A DNA stretch of 63,610 bases, the filler included, from Collodictyon triciliatum (taxonomy: Eukaryota), in assembly GCA_043381765.1 (NCBI GenBank). It is 4 parts of 4 records of this genome, joined end to end, with 100 filler letters (N's around TTAATTAATTAA, not from the genome) between each part and the next. Parts side by side here need not be neighbours in the genome. Positions count along the whole stretch, not along the records: positions 44,777 to 59,294 come from JBHJMP010000960.1; 3 more parts are not named here. One strand, given 5' to 3'. The position numbers were made by a program, and so were the translations under genes. The notes beneath the pieces are model-generated. The model had not been told where the DNA came from. It saw only the letters and a program-made list of their open reading frames with translations, and ran no database searches. Position 1 is the stretch's first letter. Each line of letters begins with the position of its first letter. Below are positions 888 to 63,404 of the stretch, one piece after another.

Positions 888-29524
<28,637 letters not shown>

Positions 29525-29564: not shown

Positions 29565-29664
29565 NNNNNNNNNNNNNNNNNNNNNNNNNNNNNNNNNNNN
29601 NNNNNNNNTTAATTAATTAANNNNNNNNNNNNNNNNNNNNNNNNNNNNNNNNNNNNNNNNNNNN
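29565..29664. other. Artificial contig spacer 44N-TTAATTAATTAA-44N
   Basis: An identical 100-nt construct occurs three times; the 12-mer places stops in all six frames. Confidence 0.97.
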
Positions 29665-30343
29665 TTACAAAACTACCGAGGTCTCAATTTTAGTAAAACT
29701 TTAGTCAATCAGTCAATCTAATAAAAAAAAAACTGCACAAAATCAATTTATGTAAAATTAAGCATCTACTAAGACTCTCAAAGCGCGCATCGTGGAAAAC
29801 AAACACACAAACATTTATTTTTTTTGTAAGTGATTTGAGACAAAACGCTGTGATCTGACTCGGCTAGTTCGACAGGACGACCGTATACCGATTGCAGCTG
29901 AAAGTCAACATATCGGCCCAACCAACATGATTGCCGCCACAAGTGTGGTAGTACGCTTATTTGACATGCATGTTTGGTGGCAGGTTTATAGGCTGATTTC
30001 TGTCTGGGCTAAGGCAAGGGCTTGTTTGTAATCTTGAATTTTTGAATTTTTAAATTTATTTACATATATGGAAAATAAAATATAAGCTCATTATAGATAT
30101 AGAATGGGATTTTAAGTATTTTCAGCCTTAATATATATATATAAATAGATATCAATTATTATAATTATAAATGCTTTCTTGTATTTTTCCCAAAGCTTAT
30201 CTGAATGGCAATTTGAGTCGGAGTTTGACCAAAAATCGAGCAATCTACAAACAGCACGCAACCAATCAGAACTCTCGGGCGCACATTATGTGATCTCCAG
30301 CTGCAAAATGAATAACAATGATTAACATGGACGATAATCACAG

Positions 30344-32800
30344 ATGGAGAGCGAATGCAACTGCCCGATCTGCCATAAAACCTTCAAAGATACCGCAAAA
30401 CTCCCATGCGGACACGTTTTCTGCTGCGATTGTGTTTCAATGACTGAGAGACTCGCCCAAAAAGCGGGTGCAAATCCCGAGTGTCCTGTTTGCCAAGGCG
30501 AGTTCACTGCAGCTTCGGAAGAAACGCCGCACCAGAGCTCTGTATACCACGATGAACTCGTTTATCGAAGAGATCCAAAGAAAAAGGAGGAGTGTGAGTA
30601 CTGTAAGAACGAGCCGTCTTTGGCTTGTGAAGATAACTGTGGTTTGGTTTGTGAAGAGTGTCAAGAAAATCACCACTCCAAGATGAGGAAAACAGCACAC
30701 CATAAAGTTATGTGAGTGATTTCTTTGTCTCTTCTGCCTTTATATATCTTCTATTGGATTTTTAAGGACTAAGTTATTATCCACTACAACCTCTTTTATA
30801 TTTACACGGACGAATTTCATTCTGACTCGTGTATATTCTCCTCTCACACGCCGAAAGCTCTCCCCTCGAAGCTGGAAATAAGCACAGGGTGAATCTGAGT
30901 GAATATATCCTACATAAGCTCCCGATTATTTCAATGTGCAACCAATGCTGGCCTGTGACTGAAATGTGCCCCATGTGTGAGAACGTCGATTGGAAGGCAA
31001 CCAAGACACATGAATACGTTGATGTGAAAAAAATTGAGCGTGGAGCAATCGAAAGCAAAGAGCTTCTTGATAAGGCTGAAAAGAAAATCACCGAGATGGG
31101 CGAAAAGAAGGAAAAAGTCGAGAATGAGATGAAGAGGGTTGTTTTTAATTCCCATAAATTAATATATGTATATACATTTGTGACGTTATCTGCATTAGAT
31201 TGATCAAGAGGAACAAGAGCAGCTAGCTAAAATTAACAATATGTACGAAGATATTGTGCAGAAAGCGACGGAATTGAAGGAGAAGCTCACTGATTTCGTA
31301 CTCTCCTTTTTAATGAATCACATATCTACCACGAAGAACTAATGCTTTTTATTTCTTTCATATGGATATAACTTAGGTGACAGCAGCTTTTCTGCCGCAA
31401 CACAATCTCATCGAATACATGCGTCATCGTATAGAGGCATCTGAGAGCATTTTAAAACACTCAATCGAGATGCTAGCAGAGTCCCAAGAAATATACGAGC
31501 GAGAATCCATCGTAACGAAGCTGTACAAGAGCGCAATATTCGCCAGTAAGGCTGTCCAAATCGAAATCGAGGATATGCCCATCGTAGATCTAGTGGAATT
31601 GACGCAACACATCCAAATTGATGGAGATGTTCTAGTAGATGGAGATGGGGCACATGTTTTAAAAGAGGCTTATGCAACGTGTGTGTCGAATGTCGAAAAC
31701 TTGAGAAAAGAAAACGATGCCTGGCAAGCTCAGGCGGAGGAGAAAGAAGCAGCGATGAAAACCGCAGACGAGAGAATCAAACAGCTGGAAGAAGAAATCG
31801 CAGAGAACCAAAAAGAAAAGGATATGATTTCCAAGATGGAGAGAGAGAAAGAGGAGGAAAGGGCGATGAAAGAGAGCACCGGAGTCGATTTATATAAAAA
31901 AATATGGGGGTGTGGCATCAAGGAATACGTGTTTCGAAATAAAATTGGGTCACAAGGGAATGGAAATTTACAGTTTAATAGTCCTTGGGGACTTGCAGTT
32001 CATCCAAAGACAAAACAGATATTTGTTGCTGAATATTCCAATCACCGTGTTCAAGTGCTTAACGAAGATTTGACTTTCGCTCGTACATTTGGTAGTAACG
32101 GCTCAAACTCGGGCCAATTCAATAGTCCCACTGGAATCGCTATCTCACCAGATGGACGAATTGCTGTTGCTGAGATTGGTGGCAACATTCGAGTGCAAAT
32201 ATTTGATGAAAACTGCAATTTCATTGATGCAATACAATCAGGACGTAAGAAGAACCTGAAATGTCCACAGGTGAATGATTTTGATGGATTTTCGAGTCCG
32301 TACTTCCTTTGCTTTGACGGCGAGGGCAATCTTTACGTTGCAAATTACAGTAGAAGTCGGGTGGATAAATTCAACAAATCGTTTGAATACGAATTCTCTT
32401 TCGCTCAATCGTCTCTCGGCGAATTCGGTATTTCATCACCCTACGGAATTTGTGTTACTTCAAAGAACGAAGTATGCGTATTCGCAAATGGGGGTGATAA
32501 AATTAACATTTATGATACGTACGGGCGATTTATGAGAACCTTAAAAATTCCAAAGGTATCGGGCAACATATCGATTGCAGAAGGTCCAAACAACACGATT
32601 CTCGTTAGTGACTATAATAATCATCAAATCCGCGCCTATGACTAGGAAGTGCTGACCTTGTTCACACATTCGGGCCATCGCAGTCATCTAACGACGGCAG
32701 TTTTAATTACCCAAGAGGAATATGCTTTGATGCAAATCAGAAACTCTACGTGTGTGATTGCAGCAATCACCGCATCCAGGTGTTCTACAAAGCAGAGTGA
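30344..32800 (+). CDS. TRIM-NHL-like protein (RING, B-box, degenerate second B-box, coiled coil, 6 NHL repeats); frameshift at about 32642
   Basis: Exons 30344-30711, 30858-31137, 31199-31297, 31377-32645. C3HC4 RING CPIC..LPCGHVFCCDC..CPVC; B-box CEYC..C..C...CEEC...H..H; NHL repeats such as FNSPWGLAV...VAEYSNHRVQV. The sixth repeat continues in the -1 frame to TGA 32798-32800. Confidence 0.88.
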
Positions 32801-34778: not shown

Positions 34779-39528
<4,750 letters not shown>

Positions 39529-44388: not shown

Positions 44389-44436
44389 CAGTGCGCGCGC
44401 GCCTTGAATAAACCTGTACATCACACGTCTGCGTTG

Positions 44437-44549
<113 letters not shown>

Positions 44550-44551
44550 TT

Positions 44552-44661
44552 TAATAGGCGCTTATCGAAGTATCACGTATTTGTATAAACTCTCTTTCAT
44601 TATCAGTATCATGTAGTATTCGGTAGCCTAGCTCGCGTTCTATCTTTTTGTCAACTAAAGC
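44552..44661 (-). mobile_element. 110-bp interspersed repeat, copy 2
   Basis: 106 of 110 nt identical to 37931-38040, with the same boundaries and a long (TAA)n tail on the minus strand. Confidence 0.65.
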
Positions 44662-44676
44662 TTTTTTTTTTTTATT

Positions 44677-44776
44677 NNNNNNNNNNNNNNNNNNNNNNNN
44701 NNNNNNNNNNNNNNNNNNNNTTAATTAATTAANNNNNNNNNNNNNNNNNNNNNNNNNNNNNNNNNNNNNNNNNNNN
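44677..44776. other. Artificial contig spacer 44N-TTAATTAATTAA-44N
   Basis: Same construct as 29565-29664. Confidence 0.97.

Positions 44777-44871
<95 letters not shown>
44777..44871. repeat. (TAT)n microsatellite at a contig start
   Basis: Direct reading. Confidence 0.96.
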
Positions 44872-44873
<2 letters not shown>

Positions 44874-45386
44874 TGGTCATACTTTCTCTTGGCAGGTCGG
44901 TGCAGTTGTAAATGATGGTGGAAATGTAAAAACTATTCAATCACAGATGCCATCGAGAGAGAATCATCATTTCTGTCTAAACATTAGTATCTGTTTGTTC
45001 ATTCCTCTTGATTCTAGTCTGATTCTGACCGGGAGGTATGAGATATATATATATATATAGATAAAGAGAAGGATATAGATAAAGATAAAGATATAGATAT
45101 GAATATGAATAGAGATGGAGATATATATGGATGTAATGTGTGAGAGCATCACAGTTTCTTACTTGGATCACTGGGTCACTGATATCTTCCCACGCCTTCT
45201 GAAAGCCAAGAAGCACAACTGATCACATCTCTTGTGTTCTTCTAAGCATACGCGCGCACACATATAATCACATCGCCTTTCGCTTCTTTCTTCGCCACTC
45301 GCTAAGCACACTCACAAAAGTAACAAAAGACTGTACTCCGCATAAACACAGAACCCGGTATACTCTTCTGCCCAACTTTAGTCTCA

Positions 45387-48300
45387 ATGTCCGATCAGAC
45401 CGCCCTTTTGGAAGAGCTGAGAGAACTCGCTGGGATTCCCCACGTCGCCTCCCTCAAAAGCCGCACGAGTCTGGACCTGAACTCGAAAAGGCTGGCTTCT
45501 ATTCCCCGCGGGGTTTTTCTGTTGGATGGTTTGAAAGACTTGGATTTGAAGCACAATCAGCTGTCGCTGCTGCCACCAGAGATATCGCACTTGGCCGGCC
45601 TCACTTGGCTAAGTGTTTCTAACAACCGGTTGTCGGCGCTATCACAAGAAATATCGTGTTTGACTGGCCTCGCAATTCTTTACATGAGTCGGAATGAGTT
45701 GATAGCACTTCCGCAAGAAATATCATGTTTGGTTGGTCTCAGAGACCTCCGTGTTAGTCACAATAAGCTGGTGTCGCTTCCTTCGGGAATATCGTGTCTG
45801 ATTGGCCTCACATATGTTGGTGTCCAAGACAATTTAGTAAGTTTTTTTTAAAAGTTATGTACTTATTTAATAGCTTTATTTATTTATGGTTTATGGTTTA
45901 TGGTTTATGGTTTATGGTTTATGGTTTATGGTTTATCGTTTTGATGATTAATCGTTTTGATGTTTTTTATTTTGATTTATTATCGCGTTGAAAATCACTT
46001 TGAATCGAATAAAGGAAAAAATTTTATCATGTTGAAAATAAAGAGGAAGTTGCTAACAGCAATCTGAGCAGATAGAAGAACTTCCGTTGTGCATCACAGC
46101 ACTCACGAATCTCAAAATGTTGTGGGTAAAATACACTGGCATTCAAACAATAAGGAAAGCACCGCGAGGAATTACATGCCTTCCTTGCTGGAACAACACA
46201 GACGAAGAATATGTGGATAATAAACATATCCGTGCTCTGCAGCTCTACGACCCTGTAAATACGATTATTATTTTTTTTAAAAAAAAACCAAAAGAAAAGG
46301 AATAGAAAAAAGCAACAAAAACCCGTTAATGTTCTCATTATACAATCTATAATAGGAAGATGAAATCATGAAACCAGAATGGACACAAAGCGAGGCACAT
46401 ATTCAACTCCGATCGTTTAATGTCACAGGAAAAGATATTTCCTTGTTACCAGAAAATATTTCCTGCTTGAAGAATCTTGGCTACATCGACATCAGCCATA
46501 ACAAGGTACGTAAAACGAAACAACCGCACATACCCGAATGAAAAAAAATCAGAAATGAATATTTGTATAATTTGAGACCTAACATATATGCGCAGTGGTA
46601 TGTAATGGTAACAACACTTCCAAAAGTATATATATTTAAGCCCTTGCATCATATGAGAAGCTATCTTTCTGAATCATTCAGTTTATTAGCAACTGGTTGT
46701 GGTTAGTTTCTAAAATTAAAACAAAATAAAATAGATATCTTCGCTCCCAACAAATTTATCGGACTTGAAGAAAATCACATATCTCTGCATAAGCAACAAT
46801 AGGGTATACTTATAGAGATATATGGTAAAGCATAGATGGCACATGTATTCATTTTGTCAAAACGAGATCTGAATATATATATTCATATACAATTTAGTTT
46901 GACAAATTTCCTGGAGTCATTTGTGCATTACCATTAATTGTATCACTCGACATTTCTAGCAATAAGGTCATTTATGATTTTTTTCATGTTAAAATGGAAA
47001 TTATTACATGCGCCAATTAGTTTATTGGCATTTTTTTTTAAAAAAAAATTCTTCTAAAAAATAAATTAACATTACTAGATAACATCACTCCCAATAAACA
47101 TATCAGACTTGACAACCCTCACTAATCTCACTATGAAGCAGAACAAGGTATTATAATAAACCTTAATGTGTACCCTGATGTTAGTATACTTTTTTTTTAC
47201 CACTATCAAATCATACAATTAATCAGAAAAATGGAGGAGGCAGCACGAGTAGAGTATGTCTGTTTTTTTATTCACAGCCTGTTCACTTCTCTTTTGTATG
47301 ACGCATGAAAATTCACTTAAATGAATAGATTTCCACACTGCCTGACCTGCGAATATTGACGAATATTGAGGAGCTGGACATGAGACAAAATGCCTTTCCT
47401 GTAGATGTACAACAGATTTTAGACTCAATCAGTCTCTCATGTGGTGACAGAATAAATCTTTCCGGTCGAGATATGAAAGAAATACCCGGAGAATTCTTCA
47501 ACCTCCCTATCAACCCCCAAAAACTGGATATTTCCAACAATCAGGTCATTTATGAGTCATATTACCAATCAAAATAAAAAAGAGCAATATATTAAAATTT
47601 TCCATGAGTTATTAATTTTATTGGGCGTTTTTTTCCCTTTATTCGATTGCATTATTAGACATCAGTTGAATTAACTTTTCTCATGAAAACATAGATATGT
47701 TCGCTCCCAGTTGCTATATCCTGCTTGATGAATCTGACCTTCATCGACATCAGTGGGAACAAAGTACGTAAAATGGACCTACTTAAAATGAGAATATCAA
47801 ATATGAAAACGAAATTCCTCATAATTTTGTACTAATACCTGCGTGGTGCCTGTGCGGTGAAAATTACCCCCTCTAATTAACAGGTTTCTTTCTATCGCAT
47901 TAGCAATCCATCTATCATGTAACACGTGCATTATGTAAAATACTGAATTGTAGGGAAAGCGTCATATTTGCTAGCGGCCAATTCTAGTCAATCCATATGT
48001 TAATTTGAATGTTCTCAGATCGAAGAGCTCCCACTCCAAATCACAGCACTCACGAACTTAAAGACGCTTATTATCGAGAAGAGGGGGCAGATAAACACAA
48101 AGTATGCACCACGCGGAATATCAAATCTCGCGTGCTACAACAATATTGAGAAACCTACATCAGGGACAATGAGCATCGCTGATGCCCTCAAAAAGCTTCG
48201 GTTATATGATGTTCCTGTAAGTTTCAATTCCATTTGTAAGAAAATGGTATCTATAAACGAGAGTGTCTCATAAATTTTTACAATTATATAAATAAGGAGG

Positions 48301-51300
48301 ACGAGATGATGTTGACAGAATGGGTACCAAATGTGAGGCAAATCAGCTTTCAATCTCTTAATTTTTGCGGCCTAGGCATTTCCATTCTGCCAACAAATAT
48401 ATCAAATATGACAAATCTCACATACCTCAACATCAGACAGAATATGGTATTAATATACTTGTTGATACAAAAATATATGATTTGGAACAAGATTATATAC
48501 TATTTTAATTTGACCCAATCTAATTTACTTTCGTATTCATAAACATATCGCATATAGAGACATGAAGTTTGACTTAAATGAATAGATATCTATGTTGCCT
48601 GACCTGCGAGCTTTGACAAACCTCAAGGAGCTAGATATGAGACAAAATGCCTTTCCTCCTCATATTCAAAAGTTTTTAGACTCTACCAGTCTCATAGATA
48701 GCGATGAAATAAACCTATCTGGCCAAGACACTATAGAAATACCTGTAGAATTGTTTATGTTACCTATCAAACCCAAGCTTAATATTTCTAATAATCAGGT
48801 TTATTGATATTTCTTTACATACTAGAGAAGACACGTGCATACACTAATTATTAGTACTTTTAAATGTTTTTTTTTTCATTATTCTTTTCATATGCGCGCA
48901 GATATCATCGGTGCCGATATATGTATCCGACTTGACGAACCTCACACATCTCAATCTTAGGAACAACAAAGTATCTCAACAATAAATTGCAATTTTAAAA
49001 AATTGTATCCATCTTACGAATTCATAACCCTTTGGTGGATATCAAAACATGACTTATTAATTTAATCAATAGATTTCCACATTACCAGACCTGAGAAGAT
49101 TGACAAATCTCAAGGAGCTAGATATGAGACAAAATGCCTTTCCTCCTCATATTCAAAAGTTTTTAGACTCTGTTAATCTTAGAAATACTGATGAAATAAT
49201 CATATCGGGGCAAGACATTAGAGAATTACCGGGAGAACTATTCATGTTGCCCCTGGATGTTAAGAAACTCAACGTTTCTAATAGTCAGGTATCTTTCTGT
49301 TCTGAATATATGTTTCATAAAGTCGCAATGTTATCATAACTCGAAAAGAAATATGATATTTCCAAGATTGTATATACCTGAATAATATCATTTCACATCT
49401 ACTCTATGCGCAGAAATCTGGTATAGTATATATACTAATATCAATTCGTACAGATTGAGGAGCTTCCACCTCTAATAACAGTGCTTTCAAAACTTCAGAC
49501 GCTCATCATTGAATATAAAGGAAAAGTCAACATGAAAAGAGCTCCGCATAATATGACAAGCCTTCCGTGCTGGAATAACAAAGAATGTGAAAGCTATCAG
49601 CACATACGCGCCCTTCAGCTATACCAAGCCCCGGTAATATCACACCCCTTTTACAGAGGAAAAATAAAGGAGAGCGACAAGCAATTCTTTAAATGTGTGC
49701 CTTTTTTTAAAAATAAAATAAAATAAAAGGAGGATGATATGATGATAGTCGGATGGGTACCAAATACAAGGCAAATCGGCTTTCAATCACTTAATTTTTG
49801 TGGCATGGATATTTCATTACTACCGACAAACATATCGGACTTGACAAACCTCACAAATCTCAGCATTAGCCACAACAAGGTAAAAAAAAAAAGCAACAAA
49901 ATGCAAATGTTTCATATAAATCGTAAATAGAAAGTAAATAAAGTATATCGAAAATGAAAACTAATTAATAACACACATAAAATCTTAGTTTGAATTATTC
50001 CCTAAAGTTGTTTGCACAATGAAGCTTATCATGAAGCTTAATATTTCCAACAACCAGGTTATCCCATTGTAAAATACAATTCCAATTAATTGGGACCACT
50101 TAGAAACGAGCAACAATATTAAATATTTTCTAACATTCCATTTTAACTGGCCTTTCATATTATATTATATTTTAGATTTCACATATTCCTGATGGCATAG
50201 TAAATCTTGTGGATTTGCAGAAACTGAATATATCCAACAACAAGGTTGGTTTTTTTTTCCCATTTTATTCCGTCTATACATATTAACAATTGATATCTCA
50301 TTAATCAAAAAATTCACTCATCGATATTTCAGATCGGTATCATACCTCCTTTTATCGCCAAGATTAAAGGACTTCGAAGTGGACTTAATATCCAAGGAAA
50401 CCCTATCAGAAATATACCAGAAAACGTCATCAAAAATGGATCTGAAATCGTTTTCGATTTTCTAGCAAACTCCATGAATGGACGTTTGAAATGGACCCAA
50501 GGAAGACTCCTATTATTGGGTGAAGGAGAGGCAGGAAAAACAACACTCACTAAATCAATTACCCAAAAATCCGTTTCTTTCAAGAGTACAACAGACCAGC
50601 CAAGGGTTCCGACTGATGGTATTGCCCATGTTGATATTGATGAATTGATCATCGATACATCCTCAAAGACAAAGTTATCCATAAAAATCTGGGATTTTGG
50701 AGGACAAGAAGAGTTCCAGGTAACACACCCGTTCTTCTTGTCATCAGGAGCTCTCGTTTTAATCCTGTACAGACTTGACCAAAGCACGGAGAAGAATAAT
50801 ATTAGCCGCTGGGTCAAAATGCTCGATGACTTTGCACCTGGCTCAAGAATTATAATTGCTGGGACACACCTAGATTGTGAAATTCCAGCCTGCAGTCGAG
50901 AAACCCAAAGGGAAATTGAGCAAATTAAAAAGGAAAATGCACATAAACAGGATGAAAAAGCTCGACATATATTCATCAATACGGAATTAAGGGTGAGCAA
51001 TAAGAGAGGAACATATATATCCTATTTGAAGAAAGCATTATATGAAGGGATGATGAAGCTAGGCAATATGAACAAGGATGTTCCCAAAACATATATTGGC
51101 CTGAGGGATTATCTTGATTCAAAAGGCCAATCCACAAAGTACGAACGAATCCAAGACACTTACGATTTTGCCGATAAGCAGTTGGGTATGGACATAAATG
51201 GGTGTGAAAGTGCTCTCAAATTCCTCCACGACCTTGGCTCAGTTGTTTGGTATTCATCACTAAGAAATGCCAAGGATATAATATTTTTGGACCCTCTCTT

Positions 51301-54300
51301 TCTCATCAATATATTCCGCTGTGTGTTTAGTTTCAAAGGAATAGGAAAGGGAACCAGTGGTATCATTTTGTTAAGTAAGCTAAAAGACCAAATCAAGCAA
51401 GAACTAGGTGCAGAATTAGATGAACAGGTCTTTAACACAATTATTCAAATATTTGACCATTTCGGCCTTGGAATTCAATTCAATAGAGAATGCATTGCTT
51501 TTCCCTCGCTTATGGAAAACTGCCAAAATCTCAAGGCGCTGTGGAATGAGAAACCAGAGTCGAACTGTATTGCTGAAACATCTGTAGAAATTATGGTCAA
51601 TAGCGAAATCCAGCTCTCTGATAAAAGCAACATCATCATACAAGCGCTTCGTTTGACAAAAGAGGTGCAAGCCGGAGTGCAATATGACGACCAATTTTTC
51701 AGGAATGTAGCCTTCATTCACTTGAATACTTTCTATATTCCAGGAGCAAAGGAAATTCAACTGCTGCCTGGAAACGAATTGATAGTTTTGTATCAAATAT
51801 ACCAAAACAAAATCTCAGTGAACATTAGAAGGTATGAAAATGGTGTTGATGAAAGTGATAGAATCGTTAGGATTTTCGATATCCTTTTCACATTTATCAA
51901 GCAAATATCATCGATTCGACCCAATTTTGTTGAAAGATATCGATTTGAATGTCCTGAGTGTCGGCGCTGTGGTTTGGACGGTTATATTCGGACATCAGCA
52001 AAGATAGATGACTCAGAATTGAAGGCTTGTACCAAGAGTCATCAACTGGAAGCAAGTGCGGTAAAGCAAGGAAGAGTCTACATGGAACAAGGTTTTTCTC
52101 GTTATTTTCAAACATATAAATGGAACAAATACTATTAATTAAAATAATCATTCATGTTTTATTCGATTAATTGGTGCACAACCCTAAGTAGCTTTATTTT
52201 GTTATATGTAAGGAATTTCAAAGAGATTTGTCTCAGTGATGAGAGCCAAAAAGACCAAGAAGCCACAATCTGCTGAAGCGAATCACGAGCTTGCTTCGAT
52301 TGACAAAGAGTTGAAGGAACAGTTGGTTTGTGAAAAAATAGAACTATCTGAGTATCTCGCAAAAGGGACATATGGCCGGGTGTACACAACAACACACAAA
52401 GGAAAAAGTGCTGTGGTGAAAATACAAACTATCCAAAAAAATAATGAACAAACCCTCAGTGAGGTAATTCAGTCACTCATTTTTGAAAGTAAGTATCTAG
52501 ATGAATGCAAGGAATGTGAAAATATTGTCAAATTATTTGGTGTGTATCGCAAAGAGGATGATTTTTATATGGTTATGGAGAACGCTGGTTTTTCGTTGAA
52601 ATCGATGCTAGAGAAGAAAGATATTAAGCCAACATTACCTCAAATAATTTCTTACACAAAACAATTATCTCATGGTCTTATTTTCATGCATTCTAAAAAT
52701 CTATATCATGAAGATTTGAAGGCTGATAATGTTATGATTGTGGGTGAAACAGTAAGAATTGTGGATTTCGGAATAGTTAGCCGCCGTGACCCTTGCAGGG
52801 TTGGTTCCAGCTTGCCGACGAGATTTGGTGAATGGAAGCAAGGTGGAACTGCCAACTGGCAAGCGCCTGAAATCCATCAAGTTTCCTGTAAGCCATTTTA
52901 TGATGATAATTCTGCTATGTATGGTGAAGACGAAATGAACGTTGGGCATCGAGGAGAACCAAGTAATGTCTACGCCCTGGGAATGCTCGTTTGGTACATG
53001 TTTTCTGGAGTTGAACCTTTTCAAAATGAGACACAAACACAGAGCTTTGTTATTAAAGGATTAAGGCCTGAAGTGCCGAAAGAAGCTACTCGTGAGCTAA
53101 AACATCTTATCAGAGCATGCTGGAGGCAAAACTATAAGCTACGACCTTCCTTAGTTCAAATATGCGAGTATCTGGATGAGTTGAATTCGAACTTATTGAA
53201 GCTTTCTCAAAACAAAATGGACGAATTACTTCCAATTAGGTATGCTCCCTTGGCAGAAATGTGCAAAGGTGAATTTGTGGAGTGGCTTCGGGAGCATGAC
53301 TTTTCAAGAATCAGTGATAAAATGGTGGGCCAAACCTGGGAAAGATTCGAAGAAATTCAAGACAAACTTGATGAACAAAGTATGATTGAGATTTATCACA
53401 TACCCCCAAGTGACATTTCAGCCTTTGCTGAATTATCAAATCAGAATGATGACTTTGGGAGCAGTTCCAGCGTTCCAATGAAAGCTAAAGATTTAAGCCA
53501 TATGAAATTAGTAACTTATTTGCAGAAAAAGACAGATCAAATGTCAAAAAGATTGCTTGAGAAAGTGAAAACCTTGAAGCTTGATGGAATCACAATATCT
53601 AAGCTTGACCATCCAGATGTGCACGCGACCCACTCCGTTTCTGAACAAGAACTTTCGTTTGCATCCCAATTCATAAACGACCACTTGCATTCAAATGAAT
53701 TCCAACCTTCCGAACATACATGGAGCTCTGATACCCTGCAAGAATTTGATGAAATTCGACATTTAAATGTGCGTTACATTTCTTGTAATCATGGAATCCA
53801 ATATGCAACCTCGCTGTGGATGGGTGATATGAAGCTCTCTCGGATTCCAAACTCCCTCAAGCATTTAGTAGAGTTGAAGAAACTTTACGTCCATTCAAAT
53901 GATGTAATGAATATAAGTTCAAAAAAAAAAAGGTATTCATTGAGAAGGGTACTGTAATCTAACTCACCACTTACTTGCAGCTTGCATTTTTCCCGGAGCC
54001 GTGCCTCGGTCTCACAAATTTGAAGTACCTGGACTTATCAAAAAATAAGGTATGTTACTTTTATTTATTTGCTTCCATAGATTTTATAATTGTTATTTCT
54101 TTTAAAGCAAAGCACATGGTTAGGTGATAAAGATTGAAGTTAATTTATGCGTAGCCTCATATTTCCTTATTATTGTAATCTTTAGATATCATCACTGCCC
54201 GCCCAAATATCAGTCCTGATAGGTCTCACTCGCCTTGACGTTTCTGAAAATCGGCTGTCATCCCTAAATCCAGAGCTATCGAGTCTTTCCAATCTTGCGC

Positions 54301-54602
54301 ACCTGGATATTCATGACAATGCGGTTTGTTGAATATATATGGATGATTACAGACAATTTGATCAGTATCAACTCATAAGTGTTTTTTTTTTTATTCCTCA
54401 ATATCTACAGATTGAAGAACTTCCTGTTGAAATCAGTGCTCTGACGGCTCTCAGTCGTCTTCAGATAAAGAGCAAAACAGGACAATCAACAACAAAGAGG
54501 GCCCCTCTCAGTATCAAAGCTCTTCCTTTTTGGAATGATCCGAGTAATCCAGATGGTGATCTCATTAGTAAACTGGAGTTTTATGACCATGTAATATACT
54601 AG
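45387..54602 (+). CDS. Roco-family protein: LRR array, Roc GTPase, COR, protein kinase (non-RD), two SAM-like segments, C-terminal LRRs; 22 exons
   Basis: Exons 45387-45836, 16 phase-0 LRR exons within 46072-50244, then 50333-52091, 52213-53903, 53981-54049, 54186-54323 and 54411-about 54602. Roc motifs GEGEAGKTT, PTDGI, IWDFGGQEEF..THPFF, GTHLD; COR ALKFLHDLGSV..IFLDP..L and CPECRRC; kinase LAKGTYGRVY, VVKI, HEDLKADN, DFG, APE. The exact stop is uncertain because of a possible donor at 54591. Confidence 0.92.
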
Positions 54603-59294: not shown

Positions 59295-59394
59295 NNNNNN
59301 NNNNNNNNNNNNNNNNNNNNNNNNNNNNNNNNNNNNNNTTAATTAATTAANNNNNNNNNNNNNNNNNNNNNNNNNNNNNNNNNNNNNNNNNNNN
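59295..59394. other. Artificial contig spacer 44N-TTAATTAATTAA-44N
   Basis: Same construct as the other two spacers. Confidence 0.97.
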
Positions 59395-59555
59395 GGGGGG
59401 GAGGGGGGGGGGGGGGGGTGGGGGGGTGGGGGGGGGGGGGGGGGGGGAGGGGGGGGGGGGGGGGAAGCTCTTGTTTTATCACCGGGCATAAAATTTGAGT
59501 ATTTGATACTTATACATATTGAGGTAAATAGAATGATTCATTGTGAAACGTTTAC

Positions 59556-62500
59556 CTGCATCACAGGACCCATATGGATTGCTCAACCCTTTATTTGGAC
59601 AATAGCTTTTAGGAGGACAGAGGAGGCATGCATCTGAGCTAACCGACCTCGGTGTAGGATTGTATGTTCCCTCATCACATGGGATTGGGAAAATAGAACT
59701 CGATGGACAGTATGCACCCTGAGGACAATCTAGAGTGTGGGGAGCAGCTTCGAGTGGACAATATTGTCTAGTAGGAAAATAATGATATTGTTAAAAAAAA
59801 AAAAAAAAGATGGTATATTGATTTTTTGAAGAATATGTCCAGATGGTATGAATGGTAATCAATTATTATTCCCCCTCCTCCATCCCTCAGCGGATTACAT
59901 TTAGGTATATCTTATCCAAAAATAAAATATCCAACCCTTCAGGACATATCAAGCACGAATCTCTGGTAGTAAAAGGGTTGTAGGTGCCGCTTGGACATGG
60001 GTATGGCTTGGATGAGTTCTGAGTTGAATAGTAGCCAGCAGGCGATGGATTCTGGTCGGCACGAAAAGATCCATCCGGGCAATAGTAACCTTTCAAGCAG
60101 CCCCCGTTGGGAGTGGTACGGCCAGGTGACTGAAAAGACCAAGCGTTGAGTAATTATGGGCTTCGTTAATATGTATTAAAGTAAAAAGTCAATTCAATCA
60201 TACTATACATTAGAGAACGTCAAGTTATTCCTCTTGTAATAAATCAAATAAATATGAAAAGGCTGTGAGAGGGTTACGTAACAGTTGCAGTGTTGGGAAA
60301 TATAGAAAGTAAAACCACAGCTTAGTCAGGTAAGGGGAGTAAAACCTCGCAGTAGAAACCCGCCGGGCATTTGTTACAGTCAGACACTAATGCGCCTCCT
60401 GCCTGGCTGCGTAATGTTGATATCGGACAAGGGATTGGGCTCGATGTTCCTGAGGGACAAAAGTGGCCTGGTGGGCACATAGTTTCGGTCGATATGGTGG
60501 AACCTTCGGGACAATAGTAACCTAATGAGGTGGTAATGGTTACGCGAATGTTTGAAGCCATCTTATGATAAGTACGCCGGAATAGCAAGTATCACGGAAG
60601 TAAACTGGGTTTTGTAAAACAATTGATGCACTGGAGATTAAAATCTTACCATCTGTGCAAAGACCGCTTATAGTTTTTTGCCCAAGGGAAGAGCAAAAGG
60701 AGCCCTGTGGGCATTGGGTGCACTCAGTCGACGTCCTTAATCCTACCGAGCTTGAGTAAGTACCAAGTGGACATGGGAGTGGCTCTAGAGTCCCAGTATG
60801 GCAATAGAATCCAGCTGGGCATATGGTCGGCTGGGCTGACCCTGTCTCACAGAAATAACCAGGTAAACAATTTCTGCAGGAGGCACCTGACACAGACCTC
60901 GGGTCAGGGTTGTAAGTTCCTCCAGGGCAGGGCATTTCTGTCGGAGAAGAGCTACCCTCCACGCAAAAGTGCCCAGGTGAGCATACTCCAGATGGCCCAC
61001 TCTTTCCAGCCTCACAGAAATACCCTGCTGGACAAACGATACAGTCAAGAATACTGGAGGCCCCAGGAGATGGATTGTAAGATCCAGATGGGCAAGATAC
61101 TGGAGCCACCGTAGCTTCAGGACAGTAGTAACCGATTGGACAAGGATGGAGATGGTCTGATGGTATATTTTTCAATCCTGCAGGACAAAAATTACCAGCA
61201 GGACACTTGTTTCTGTTCATTTGGTCATATGATGTGGCTGGAAGATTGCAGTAGTATCCTGGCGAGCATCTGGTGCACTCCCGTTGGCCTATATCAGAGT
61301 ATGTACCAGGAAGACAGGGTACCGGCTCGACAGTCGCTTCACTGCAACGCATACCTGCAGGGCACAGTAAGCAATCAAACGGATTCATGATACCTGTCTG
61401 GTTCGAGTATGTCCCTGAACTACAGCTAATAGGTCCAGAACTCCCTTCCAAGCAAAAGTAACCTTCAGGGCAAAGTTGGCAGTCATCTGCTCTTCTTAGA
61501 CCCACTTGAGGAGAGAATGTGCCCGCTGGGCATGGATACTGGAATTCAGCTGCAGTTCCTAATGGACAGTAGTATCCGGCTGGACACTCTCCAGATAGTC
61601 GGTTGTCACCTCCAGTGCAATATGAGCCAGATGGGCAGCTAACACATCCCTCCTGCGATGATAGCCCCGGTGTATTTGAAAATGTTCCTGGTGGGCATGG
61701 ATTCTGGGTGTCGTACGGAGTTCCAACAGGACAAAAGTAGCCTTCAGGGCAGATAGTAGGTGGCTTAGTAATCCCTCCGGTTCCTTTTGTACAGACAAAG
61801 CCTTTCGGACATGGCTGACAATCGTATAAAGACATGGCATCGAATCTATCAGTATATGTCCCAGCAGGGCACTGAATCATAGAAGAGAGTGTACTGCCCG
61901 TTGGGCAATAATGCCCTGGAGAGCATGATTGCAAATGAAATCCAGTGAATGCGGTACAAGTAAATCCTGGGGGACAAGGGCGACAAAAAGAGCTACTGGT
62001 TGCCCCAGTGGTTGGGTTGTAGGTGCCAGCTTGGCAGGATACTGGGTATATGGAGGCTTCTGGACAGTAATATCCAGGGTAGCAGGGGGTGCACTCTCCT
62101 TCTTCCTTCAGGCCAGTGCGGTAGTTACTGAATGTTCCCGCAGGGCATGGGTATTGATGTTCCAGACTAGTGCCCTCGGGACAATAGTGGCCAAGGGGAC
62201 AAAAAAAGGAGGTGGGCTGGACAGTGGCTATGCCGCAATATGACCCAGCAGGACAAGGCAAACAGGAGCTTTGGTCTCTTTGCATCGGTAACATGTTATA
62301 AGTTCCGTTCGAACAAGGCGTCAATTGGTATGTCTTGGAGCCGATGGGGCAGTAGTAGCCAGGAGGGCAAACAAGACCTTCGATATAAGGATCTGACGTA
62401 CCCATTGGACAATAGAACCCAGCAGGACAACTTTTGCAGTCTGTGGAATTCTTGCTGTTAGATGACGGGTTGTATGTTCCGGCAGGGCATGGTCGATATC

Positions 62501-63267
62501 CAAGACCGCTTTCGCAAAATCCACCCTTATTTAAATAGGGAAGACACACATTTGAGTGGATTTAGTAGTAAAATATTGCGTGGGGTGATGTAAAAAAAAA
62601 AGATATAATTCAGCAAAACTTTTCATACTGGTATATATTGTCTCCCAAAATATGATATGTATATGAGCATGCTAACCGGTTGGCATTCACTCTCAAGGGG
62701 CGTTGGTGAATATTCATTTGATGAGCAAGAGTATCCATCAGAGCATGTCGTGCAATTAGCTTGGCCAGAGTAGCTATAGGATGAGGCTGGGCAAAGTAAT
62801 GGGTTGGTTGAACCATCGGGGCAAAAGGTACCAGCAGGGCATATAAGACACTTGTGAGACCGTGGTGGGCTGTAGTATCCAGTGGGGCATTTGATGGGGG
62901 TATTTCTATTTAAAAATAATATAGATTAATGTGTTAAGTGTGTTTGCATTAAAAAAAATTGTTCTGTTGTTCCTCATTTCATTCCTAATAGTGTTATTAC
63001 TGTTAGGTGGGATAAAAAAATATTGATTGGATCTATATGGAATGTCATGAAGCGCTTATATAGTTAACTTAAATTTCTTAATGGAGAAAAAAAGGGGATA
63101 TTGAAATTCGAGTATGCTTACGCCTCTGTTAGGCAGTATGAACCTCCGGGGCAGGCTTGGCAGGATATAGAATTTTCTTGGGAGTATGTTCCCTTGGGGC
63201 ATGGAATGATGTTCACTGTGGCCACGCCAGGGCAAATCGAACCTGCAGGGCAAGATGTGCACGTCGC
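59556..63267 (-). CDS. Large cysteine-rich GCC2/GCC3 (Ephrin_rec_like) repeat protein, internal fragment (6 exons, open at both ends)
   Basis: Dozens of CPAGxYCPxG and PCPAGTY(N/S)..G....C..C units. Exons at about 63267-63122, 62905-62677, 62525-60650, 60521-60346, 60129-59936 and 59767-59556 splice in frame with GT-AG. Confidence 0.9.
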
Positions 63268-63404
63268 CTGATGGGATACACATTTCCAAATCCAATCATT
63301 AATTATTCGTACGAACAGCAGAAATAAATGATGTGTCCATAGGAAATAAGTATCAGCATGTAAGAAGCAAGTAATAAATTCGATAATTCATTTGAATTTT
63401 TGTT

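What the first reader, a model, noticed from the sequence alone, without database searches (positions are those of the whole stretch)
45387..50332. Roco LRR region built from 16 interchangeable phase-0 exon cassettes: candidate combinatorial receptor system
Seen: all 17 introns before the Roc domain are phase 0, so every internal exon is symmetric. The exons fall into recurring classes: A (46072-46254, 48019-48216, 49454-49633); B (exactly 150 nt: 46356-46505, 48297-48446, 49730-49879); single-LRR exons of exactly 69 nt (starting 46735, 46898, 47079, 47695, 48902, 49989, 50176); and E (213-216 nt: 47329, 48586, 49073). The order A-B-c-d-c-E-c / A-B-E-c-E / A-B-d-c is a mosaic, not a simple tandem array. 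The neighbouring dynein and FTHFS genes mix all three phases. Established: brown-algal (Ectocarpus) ROCO genes with one-LRR exons show exon shuffling and were proposed as immune receptors. Inference: an analogous, possibly independent, system diversifying a ligand-binding surface by exon shuffling or skipping.
Basis: partly seen in the sequence, partly recalled or inferred. Interest (0 to 1): 0.85.

Follow-up and report, generated by a model that had tools for sequence, protein, structure and literature searches.

The report
Modular LRR exons of a Roco gene

Summary
All 17 introns before the Roc domain are GT-AG and phase 0. Exon coordinates, lengths (7 x 69 nt, 3 x 150 nt, 213-216 nt, 180-198 nt) and classes are as stated. 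One intron (A1|B1) is spliced exactly as predicted in a public-run contig.

- Cassette copies are old. The best nucleotide identity is 84% over 69 nt. The youngest pairs have dS 0.8-1.1 and dN/dS 0.17-0.19.
- No orphan or antisense cassettes occur anywhere in the 63.6 kb window.
- No cassette-skipping join or isoform was seen here or in 27 transcript-derived proteins (8 clusters) aligned from the closest relative, Diphylleia rotans.
- The same module classes occur in many D. rotans proteins (A and E by profile, d by eye), and introns lie at the same repeat position. The exon grammar is therefore an inherited family trait.

The gene probably continues past the finding into a kinase and four more LRR exons, including a fourth A cassette, ending at 54602.

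It differs from brown-algal ROCOs, which have 72-bp phase-2 exons. This is a new variant of a known kind. Interest is moderate.

The parts
45387..45836 (+). Exon 1: start codon, N-terminal motif and five LRRs without introns
   Evidence: ORF from ATG 45387 with donor GTAAGT at 45837. The N-terminus resembles the N-termini of D. rotans relatives (by eye). An X1 contig covers 45350-45729 with 0 mismatches.
46072..46254 (+). A1 cassette (183 nt, phase 0-0)
   Evidence: Spliced to B1 in X1 record 2.
46356..46505 (+). B1 cassette (150 nt)
46735..47147 (+). Three 69-nt single-LRR exons: c1 46735-46803, d1 46898-46966, c2 47079-47147
   Evidence: The classes come from the unit identity matrix.
47329..47544 (+). 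E1 cassette (216 nt)
   Evidence: It is 72% nt identical to E2, and the similarity runs about 27 nt into the upstream intron.
47695..47763 (+). c3 single-LRR exon (69 nt)
   Evidence: It is 81% identical over 59 nt to the LRR half of B1, including 10 nt of the donor-side intron.
48019..48446 (+). A2 (48019-48216, 198 nt) and B2 (48297-48446, 150 nt)
   Evidence: A2 is 67% aa identical to an external single-exon ORF, P0076.
48586..49288 (+). E2 (48586-48798), c4 (48902-48970), E3 (49073-49288)
   Evidence: E2 and E3 align at 75.9% over 278 nt, including about 60 nt of upstream intron. For this pair dS is 0.82 and dN/dS 0.19.
49454..50244 (+). A3 (49454-49633), B3 (49730-49879), d2 (49989-50057), c5 (50176-50244)
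   Evidence: B2 and B3 are 75% nt identical, with dS 1.08 and dN/dS 0.17.
50333..52091 (+). Exon 18: the last LRRs with a cap-like motif, then the Roc GTPase and COR. The exon ends at 52091 or 52060, depending on the donor used.
   Evidence: Pfam Roc 5.9e-20 and COR-A 6.4e-11. The PDB sequence search gives LRRK2 at 8.5e-17 and 4wnr at 2.8e-17. The P-loop GEGEAGKTT, DFGGQ and THLD motifs are read.
52237..53903 (+). Probable exon 19: protein kinase plus about 250 aa of unassigned sequence. It starts at 52237 (phase 1) or 52224 (phase 0).
   Evidence: Pfam Pkinase 8.9e-38. Both joins give an open frame to 54602. The best local hits are D. rotans LRR-kinase proteins at 34-35% identity, E 1e-49 to 1e-54. 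No transcript covers the join.
53981..54602 (+). C-terminal LRR exons: d3 53981-54049 (69 nt), a two-LRR exon 54186-54323 (138 nt), and A4 54411-54602 including the stop codon
   Evidence: GT-AG, phase-0 introns at the same LRR position. A4 aligns with A1-A3 and is 70% aa identical to the external ORF P0077.

Best explanation
This is a germline-complete gene for a large cytosolic Roco-type signalling protein. Its domains run in this order: about 35 LRR-like units, Roc GTPase, COR, then very probably a TKL-like kinase and about five more LRRs, for roughly 2130 aa in total.

The LRR region is written in five old module classes:
- c, a canonical 23-aa LRR.
- d, an F-x-x-F-P variant.
- A, an LRR plus a long irregular repeat ending in L-x-L-Y-D.
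- B, a W-containing irregular repeat plus a c-type LRR.
- E, which by my reading is an LRR, a d-like unit and a 'restart' LRR.

Each module is bounded by a phase-0 intron at the same point of the repeat. The pattern arose by DNA-level duplication of exon-plus-intron units and of multi-exon blocks, through unequal crossing-over. This happened long ago, in the ancestor of a lineage-specific family shared with the collodictyonid Diphylleia rotans. All-phase-0 symmetry follows from copying one unit. It is not evidence of present-day mixing.

The irregular A-B and E modules are most likely structural punctuation, meaning longer repeats or kinks, within one continuing solenoid that binds partners and regulates the GTPase/kinase, as in LRRK2-type proteins. 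A role as an intracellular sensor is plausible but inferred.

Shown: the exon structure, one spliced junction, the domain content, the age of the copies, and module conservation in relatives. Inferred: the duplication mechanism, the structural role of A-B and E, the fusion with the kinase, and the function.
For: - Exon and phase structure.
- Spliced A1|B1 contig.
- Age of the copies. Self-BLASTN finds only E1/E2/E3 (73-76%), B2/B3 (75%) and c-type units. The A exons are 58-62% identical and give no hit. Intron-flank similarity survives only for the youngest pairs, at 60, 27 and 20 nt.
- Selection. The youngest pairs have dS 0.82-1.15 and dN/dS 0.17-0.19. The c units have dN/dS 0.25-0.45 where it can be computed.
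- Units cluster by class. The maximum is 84% over 69 nt.
- No further cassette anywhere in the window on either strand; all tblastn hits outside known exons have E > 0.05.
- Relatives. The four best of 63 Roc-COR hits are D. rotans proteins at 31-36% identity. Of 10 top A-profile hits looked up, 8 are D. rotans.
- A and E modules recur in D. rotans proteins. P0067, for example, has A, E, E, E, E, A.
- Intron positions in D. rotans. Isoforms read through introns exactly after 'N-x' (P0221, P0222, P0225) or start with intron-like sequence ending in Q just before 'IxELP' (P0226, P0082, P0229).
- In the A-module tree, A2 and A4 pair with external exons (67% and 70% aa) and not with each other.
- Structure. 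An AlphaFold2 model of D. rotans P0224 (c c c A B c d A) has mean pLDDT 88.5. Beta strands come every 23 residues, with longer irregular spacing through A-B. The top Foldseek hits are LRR solenoids.
Against: - No whole genome and no long-read cDNA were available, so paralogue number, order variation between strains and isoform diversity in this organism are untested.
- Transcript data for this gene are a few short contigs.
- B3's LRR half is slightly closer to c2 (78%) than to B2's (72%), and B1's is closer to c3 (70% against 65%). This hints at some exchange between units.
- Relatives carry the modules in different numbers and orders and fuse them to different effectors: Roc-COR-DUF4062-NTPase, or kinase alone. 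That is what a diversifying receptor family would look like over evolutionary time.
- The pairwise dN/dS values average over whole exons and cannot exclude positive selection at a few surface sites.
- Foldseek TM-scores are only 0.39-0.43, so the shape of the A-B region is not established.
Confidence: 0.65

Rival explanations
1. Combinatorial receptor by alternative splicing. The symmetric cassettes are skipped or included in many combinations to give a repertoire of LRR surfaces from one gene, as proposed for Ectocarpus ROCOs and shown for DSCAM.
For: All 16 internal exons are 0-0 symmetric, and the introns sit at one structural position. Any skip therefore keeps both the reading frame and the repeat register. 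Brown-algal ROCOs with tandem LRR exons have up to nine splice variants (PMC11378527, sections 11 and 15).
Against: - The only exon-exon junction seen is the constitutive A1|B1. None of the 8 joints listed there links two exon ends of this gene across a skipped cassette.
- In D. rotans, 27 transcript-derived proteins in 8 clusters were aligned (5+4+3+5+3+3 shown; two pairs compared by length only). They differ by N-terminal truncation, intron read-through and C-terminal ends, never by an internal cassette.
- The cassette classes are not equivalent. A, B and E are conserved irregular units, so they are not freely exchangeable.
- The data are thin: short contigs and Trinity assemblies.
Confidence: 0.08
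2. Ongoing, Ectocarpus-like dynamic exon shuffling, germline or somatic. Cassettes are being copied, inverted and moved within and between ROCO loci now.
For: The class order is a mosaic: A-B-c-d-c-E-c / A-B-E-c-E / A-B-d-c. The LRR halves of B exons are closest to free c exons. Many distinct A-type single-exon ORFs exist on short public contigs.
Against: - No copy pair exceeds 84% nt identity, and dS is at least 0.8.
- There are no intronic, antisense or degenerate cassettes in this gene or in the other roughly 54 kb of the window. Such cassettes are the hallmark in Ectocarpus (PMC3341825, section 15).
- A2 and A4 each have a closer external counterpart at a similar distance (67% and 70%). 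This fits a whole-gene orthologue or paralogue that keeps the same cassettes.
Confidence: 0.1
3. Two genes, not one. LRR-Roc-COR ends at the stop at 52136, and a separate kinase-LRR gene starts at ATG 52239.
For: The Roc-COR frame has an in-frame stop at 52136 if it is not spliced. The kinase frame has an ATG at 52239. D. rotans has modular-LRR kinases without Roc-COR (P0230, P0090). The closest Roc-COR relatives carry DUF4062 and NTPase domains and no kinase. No transcript spans the gap.
Against: Only about 100 nt separate the stop from the ATG, on the same strand. Two alternative GT-AG introns join the frames cleanly, giving an open reading frame of 2131 or 2137 aa. Roc-COR-kinase is a standard Roco architecture, and several hits carry PF00069 or PF07714 together with Roc and COR. 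This rival does not affect the verdict on the LRR cassettes.
Confidence: 0.25

Closest known systems
Brown-algal (Ectocarpus, Saccharina) LRR-ROCO genes with shuffled LRR exons (PMC3341825, passages; PMC11378527, abstract and sections 11 and 15)
   Same: Both have N-terminal LRRs followed by Roc-COR. In both, the LRR units are encoded by short, in-phase, equal-length exons, they belong to a multi-gene family, and they have been proposed as intracellular sensors.
   Different: - Exon form. Exons here are 69 nt and phase 0, against 72 bp and phase 2, so the intron sits at a different point of the repeat. This argues against shared exon ancestry.
- Cassette types. This gene has five classes, including 150-216-nt composite exons, where brown algae have uniform exons.
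- Shuffling signs. There are no intronic or antisense orphan LRR exons, no recent copies and no sign of positive selection at the pair level.
- A kinase probably follows COR.
- The closest relatives are from a collodictyonid, not a stramenopile.
Diphylleia rotans modular LRR proteins (EukProt EP00002 transcripts such as P0067, P0220, P0002, P0003, P0230, P0090)
   Same: - They have the same A and E modules by profile (E down to 1e-12 per domain). The B-like W motif and the d-type F-P unit were seen by eye.
- Their N-terminal motif is the same.
- Introns are inferred at the same phase-0 position.
- Roc-COR is 31-36% identical, and the kinase is 34-35% identical.
   Different: The effector parts differ: Roc-COR-DUF4062-P-loop NTPase, or kinase without Roc-COR. 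Module numbers and orders also differ. No orthologue above 36% identity was found, and no genomic DNA of these relatives could be examined.
LRRK2/LRRK1 and Dictyostelium Roco kinases
   Same: They share the LRR-Roc-COR-kinase order. Roc-COR-A matches LRRK2 at 8.5e-17. The kinase has VxK, HxDLKxxN, DFG and APE motifs (by inspection).
   Different: No ankyrin, armadillo or WD40 parts were found. The LRR region is far longer, at about 35 units. More LRRs follow the kinase. The kinase is nearest to RIPK1 among solved structures (4.6e-17), not to LRRK2.
Lamprey variable lymphocyte receptors and arthropod DSCAM (recalled; named in PMC3341825 and PMC11378527)
   Same: These are repeat-module receptors whose diversity comes from choosing among cassettes.
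   Different: VLRs start from an incomplete germline gene flanked by donor cassette arrays. DSCAM has arrays of mutually exclusive exons. Here the germline gene is a complete ORF with no spare cassettes nearby.

Membership tests
ROCO proteins | A Roc (Ras of complex) GTPase domain | tested here: met
   Pfam PF08477 at 5.9e-20, above its cut-off. The P-loop, DxxGQ and a T-H-x-D G4 motif are read.
ROCO proteins | A COR domain directly after Roc | tested here: met
   Pfam COR-A PF16095 at 6.4e-11, 42.8 bits against a cut-off of 35.3. COR-B (PF25497) was not reported for this protein. The match to LRRK2 runs through Roc and COR-A.
Roco kinases (LRRK-like) | A kinase domain C-terminal to COR on the same polypeptide | tested here: inconclusive
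   A kinase ORF lies 100 nt downstream (Pfam 8.9e-38). Two in-frame GT-AG joins are possible. No transcript spans the join.
Brown-algal shuffled LRR-ROCO genes | Each LRR on its own 72-bp, phase-2 exon | tested here: not met
   Here there are 69-nt phase-0 exons plus composite exons of 138-450 nt. The brown-algal figures come from PMC11378527, section 11.
Brown-algal shuffled LRR-ROCO genes | Intact or decayed LRR exons within LRR-domain introns, often on the non-coding strand | tested here: not met
   tblastn with all 20 cassette peptides (exon 1 included) against both strands of the window gave no hit below E 0.05 outside the known exons.
Brown-algal shuffled LRR-ROCO genes | Recent duplication or a recombination hot spot (near-identical exons) | tested here: not met
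   The maximum is 84% identity over 69 nt, and dS is at least 0.8.
Brown-algal shuffled LRR-ROCO genes | Positive selection on concave-face LRR positions | tested here: inconclusive
   Pairwise whole-exon dN/dS is 0.16-0.45. Variable positions in the 14 c-type units are the usual x positions. There are too few copies for site models.
Brown-algal shuffled LRR-ROCO genes | Splice variants that differ in LRR exon content | tested here: inconclusive
   None was seen. Only short contigs and a relative's Trinity assemblies were available.
Diphylleia-type modular LRR family (defined here, not in the literature) | An A module (IxELP...RAPxGIxxLPCW...LxLY) and an E module (xNxFP...LD...L.LSG...) | tested here: met
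   Profiles built from the window's exons find A in 50 of 222 fetched proteins. E is found in P0067, P0001, P0082, P0088 and P0230. The library-wide A profile gives 323 hits at E<=1e-3 and 62 at E<=1e-10, some of them generic LRR proteins.
VLR-like somatic cassette assembly | An incomplete germline gene with flanking donor cassette arrays | tested here: not met
   The germline ORF is complete. No cassettes occur elsewhere in the window.

The most novel reading that the evidence does not exclude
The window gene and its Diphylleia relatives represent a second, independently evolved exon-modular LRR receptor family in a deep-branching heterotrophic protist lineage (Diphyllatea/CRuMs or near it). 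Five ancient phase-0 LRR modules are duplicated, lost and re-ordered between paralogues and coupled to interchangeable effectors: Roc-COR-kinase, Roc-COR-DUF4062-NTPase, or kinase alone. Together these would form an innate-immune-type sensor repertoire convergent with brown-algal ROCOs and with NLRs.
Probability: 0.25. Interest if true: 0.65.

Novelty: new variant of a known kind. Interest (0 to 1): 0.4.

Why it matters
If the family-level reading holds, exon-modular LRR-ROCO repertoires would not be a brown-algal peculiarity. They would be a recurrent solution, found here with a different intron phase and a richer module grammar, in a lineage near the base of Amorphea where almost nothing is known about self/non-self sensing. 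For this single locus the practical value is smaller:
- It gives a clean, fully resolved gene model for a roughly 2130-aa Roco protein.
- It defines module classes (A, B, c, d, E) that can be used to annotate relatives.
- It illustrates that uniform intron phase in a repeat protein records its duplication history and does not show present-day combinatorial use.

Three full-text searches found no paper that links ROCO with Diphylleia, Collodictyon, CRuMs, Mantamonas or Rigifila (in one search none of the 15 papers listed, of 97 found, contains 'ROCO').

Tried and rejected
- Whole-genome search. No genome is held for this window, so paralogues could not be counted.
- RNA runs. No listed holder is on record as RNA. 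Three runs kept as contigs were laid, and most of the gene has no cover. Several joints with 20-26-nt sides (for example 45671>48018 and 45672>49100) were set aside as paralogue or other-organism matches. A 54053>54224 joint with 34 replaced letters looks like a spliced d3|cc junction of a diverged paralogue or orthologue, and it was not used as evidence.
- Metagenome scan with the A-exon profile: 104 pattern matches, none confirmed.
- Naming the organism from a dynein exon. The best hits were 47-61% identical fragments from many animals and unnamed contigs, which is not informative. Pfam on other window ORFs gave only NHL and Ephrin_rec_like.
- Small unit HMMs built from the window were too weak to type c and d units in D. 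rotans proteins. The module orders given for relatives are therefore partial.
- Folding the window's own LRR region was not attempted, because the spliced protein is a joined sequence. A D. rotans fragment was folded instead.
- Supplementary tables of the two brown-algal papers were not opened, because supplements are closed. They hold the per-locus exon counts and site-model results that I cite only from the main text.
- Considered and rejected: that the exons are chance ORFs. All 34 splice sites are canonical, one junction is confirmed, and the modules are conserved in another species.

Full report
**1. What is there**

The window is eukaryotic DNA, about 37-40% G+C, with short AT-rich introns.
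- Each exon is flanked by AG and GT and has a length divisible by three.
- The joined exons read without a stop into a long exon starting at 50333.
- That exon carries a Roc GTPase (Pfam 5.9e-20) and COR-A (6.4e-11). It matches LRRK2's Roc-COR at 8.5e-17 among solved structures.

So 17 of 17 introns upstream of Roc are phase 0, and all fall after the 'N-x' of the LRR consensus. Lengths are as stated: seven exons of 69 nt, three of 150 nt, three of 213-216 nt and three of 180-198 nt. Introns are 80-255 nt at 20-36% G+C, against 40% for the exons.

One intron is confirmed by a public-run contig that joins 46254 to 46356 with no mismatch. Other contigs of the same run cross exon-intron borders, so that run holds unspliced RNA or DNA as well.

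**2. The gene is larger than the finding**

About 100 nt past the apparent stop (52136) the same strand opens a 581-codon frame with a protein kinase domain (Pfam 8.9e-38).
- Two GT-AG introns could join COR to it in frame: 52092-52236 (phase 1) or 52061-52223 (phase 0). Either gives one open frame of 2137 or 2131 codons ending at 54602.
- After the kinase come three more phase-0 introns at the same LRR position, and three more LRR exons. These are a 69-nt d-type exon (53981-54049), a 138-nt two-LRR exon (54186-54323) and a fourth A-type cassette (54411-54602).
- No transcript covers the COR|kinase join, so a two-gene reading remains possible. I put it at about 0.25.
- The kinase has the VxK, HxDLKxxN, DFG and APE motifs (by inspection). 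It is nearest to RIPK1 among solved structures.

**3. Is the uniform phase more than chance?**

In the neighbouring dynein gene, six introns placed by spliced alignment to a homologue have phases 1, 0, 1, 0, 0, 0. Phase 0 is therefore common but not universal here. FTHFS was not examined, and no phase-2 intron appeared in this small sample.

Seventeen independent introns would all be phase 0 with a probability of roughly 1e-5 to 1e-3. They are not independent, however. They sit at the same residue of a repeated unit, which is what serial duplication of one exon-plus-intron unit produces.

**4. How old and how mobile are the cassettes?**

- Self-BLASTN of the gene finds only E1/E2/E3 (73-76% identity), B2/B3 (75%) and the c-type LRR units. 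The A exons are 58-62% identical and give no significant hit.
- Similarity extends into flanking introns only for the youngest pairs: about 60 nt for E2/E3, 27 nt for E1/E2 and 20 nt for B2/B3. This shows the copies were made at the DNA level, and also that they are old.
- For those pairs dS is 0.82-1.15 and dN/dS 0.17-0.19. For c units dN/dS is 0.25-0.45 where it can be computed.
- In a matrix of all 29 69-nt units, the units group by class and the maximum identity is 84%.
- There is a small sign of exchange. The LRR half of B3 is closest to c2 (78%), and that of B1 is closest to c3 (70%, or 81% over 59 nt including 10 nt of intron).
- tblastn with the 20 cassette peptides (exon 1 included) found no extra, decayed or antisense cassette in any intron or anywhere else in the 63.6 kb. 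Such cassettes are the hallmark of shuffling in Ectocarpus (PMC3341825, section 15, passages read).

**5. Relatives**

- The four best Roc-COR hits of 63 (31-36% identity, E 1e-55 to 1e-59, against 4e-23 for the next) are transcript-derived proteins of Diphylleia rotans in EukProt.
- They contain the same irregular modules. Profiles built from the window's A and E exons find A, E, E, E, E, A in P0067 and one or two A modules in the others.
- A library-wide search with the A profile gave 323 proteins at E<=1e-3 and 62 at E<=1e-10. Some of these are ordinary LRR proteins that match only the first 20-odd positions.
- Of the 20 hits looked up, 9 are D. rotans transcripts. Seven are single-exon ORFs on 523-844-nt NCBI contigs with no name. 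Four are unrelated LRR proteins.
- Among 222 fetched proteins, 50 (isoforms included) have a near-full A module.
- The kinase is most like the kinases of D. rotans proteins that carry A modules but no Roc-COR: P0090 and P0230/P0082/P0229, at 34-35% identity and E 1e-49 to 1e-54.
- The closest Roc-COR relatives end in DUF4062 and P-loop NTPase domains.

The family thus couples one kind of modular LRR array to several effectors.

**6. Intron positions and isoforms in the relative**

I aligned 23 D. rotans proteins from six clusters, and compared two further pairs by length only. They differ in three ways:
- By N-terminal truncation.
- By a 49-aa in-frame insertion that looks like a retained intron (P0220).
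- By read-through that begins with V (GTN) right after 'N-x' (P0221, P0222, P0225), or by intron-like sequence ending in Q (CAG) right before 'IxELP' (P0226, P0082, P0229).

This places introns at the same phase-0 position as in the window, so the exon grammar is inherited. None of these proteins differs from another by a missing internal cassette.

The short NCBI ORFs likewise start just after '..Q' and end with 'P|V..'. They are therefore A exons with conserved borders.

In a tree of 39 A modules, the window's four copies group with these NCBI exons, apart from D. rotans. A2 pairs with P0076 (67% aa) and A4 with P0077 (70%), whereas A1-A4 are only 44-51% identical to one another in that alignment. 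The internal duplications therefore predate the split from whatever genome those contigs come from. The similar distances fit a gene copy that retains the same cassettes.

**7. What the odd modules may do**

The reading of modules as repeat units is mine, made by eye from the sequences:
- A reads as a normal LRR followed by a long irregular repeat (xAPxGIxxLPCW...LxLYD).
- B reads as a W-containing irregular repeat followed by a c-type LRR.
- E reads as an LRR, a d-like unit and a 'restart' LRR that resembles the first repeat of exon 1.

An AlphaFold2 model of the D. rotans fragment P0224 (c c c A B c d A; 17-row alignment) has mean pLDDT 88.5 and pTM 0.68.
- Beta strands fall at residues 3, 26, 49, 72 and 95.
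- Further strands fall at 108, 141, 165, 188, 211 and 234. The A-B stretch is thus spanned by longer repeats with extra short helices.
- Foldseek's best PDB matches are LRR solenoids: Leptospira LIC10831 at 2e-13, SHOC2 at 2e-12 and the Chlorobium Roco LRR at 8e-9. TM-scores are only 0.39-0.43 and rmsd 10-12 Å.

I read this as a continuing solenoid with irregular, probably kinked, punctuation. That is an inference from a relative, not from this protein.

**8. Comparison with the known case**

Brown-algal ROCO genes encode each LRR on a 72-bp phase-2 exon. They show intronic and antisense LRR exons, recent duplicates, positive selection at four concave-face sites and up to nine splice variants (PMC11378527, abstract and sections 11 and 15; PMC3341825, passages).

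| Feature | Brown-algal ROCO genes | This gene |
|---|---|---|
| LRR exon form | 72 bp, phase 2, uniform | 69 nt, phase 0, plus composite exons in five classes |
| Orphan or antisense LRR exons in introns | present | none found |
| Recent duplicates | present | none found |
| Positive selection | at four concave-face sites | no signal at the pair level |
| Splice variants differing in LRR content | up to nine | none seen in thin data |

The resemblance is therefore one of principle, an exon-per-repeat ROCO, and not of descent.

**9. Verdict**

The interpretation as a working combinatorial system is not supported for this locus. The structure is best explained as the fossil of old unequal-crossover duplications in a lineage-specific modular LRR family.

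The family itself is the interesting residue. It has many members in D. rotans, variable module order and interchangeable effectors, and it may be an independent exon-modular sensor repertoire. I found no paper linking ROCO to this lineage in three full-text searches.

Testing these readings needs a genome-wide cassette census, long-read cDNA and strain comparison.

Noticed in passing
window 52237-54602 (+): A kinase domain and four more LRR exons lie directly downstream of the Roc-COR exon. They include a fourth A-type cassette and three more phase-0 introns.
   Followed up: yes
window 45886-45935 (intron 1): A short minisatellite, (GGTTTAT)n with about 7 copies, lies inside intron 1 of the Roco gene. 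It was seen in the sequence.
   Followed up: no
window 16423-17042; 29565-29664; 44677-44776; 59295-59394: Runs of N are present. One is 620 nt long. Three are pairs of 44-nt runs separated by 12 bases. One pair lies about 600 nt upstream of the Roco start codon, so the promoter region is incomplete.
   Followed up: no
window 30338-32645 (+): A cysteine-rich RING-like ORF (30338-30712) is followed by a coiled-coil and NHL-repeat ORF (Pfam NHL 6.3e-27). This is a TRIM-NHL-like arrangement, unusual outside animals if it is one gene.
   Followed up: partly
window 59482-63387 (-): A large cysteine-rich repeat protein with Ephrin_rec_like (GCC2/GCC3-type) repeats is encoded on the minus strand, including a 673-codon exon at 60543-62561.
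   Followed up: partly
window ~4600-29500 (+): An axonemal outer-arm-type dynein heavy chain gene is present. Its best hits are DNAH11-like at 47-61% identity to fragments. It has many short exons, and six placed introns have phases 1, 0, 1, 0, 0, 0.
   Followed up: partly
window 34990-35160; 39270-39400; 44400-44900: Long simple repeats (TTTC/CTT-type, poly-T/A, GT) lie between genes. They were seen as low-complexity ORFs.
   Followed up: no
P0220 vs P0071 (D. rotans), alignment columns 601-650: A 49-aa in-frame hydrophobic insertion sits inside an A-like module of one isoform. It is most simply a retained 147-nt intron, at a position where the window's A exons have none.
   Followed up: partly
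window 45387-45836: Exon 1 is markedly richer in G+C than the other LRR exons (0.50, and GC3 0.55, against 0.32-0.47). It holds five LRRs with no intron, which may reflect intron loss or a different history for the 5' block.
   Followed up: no
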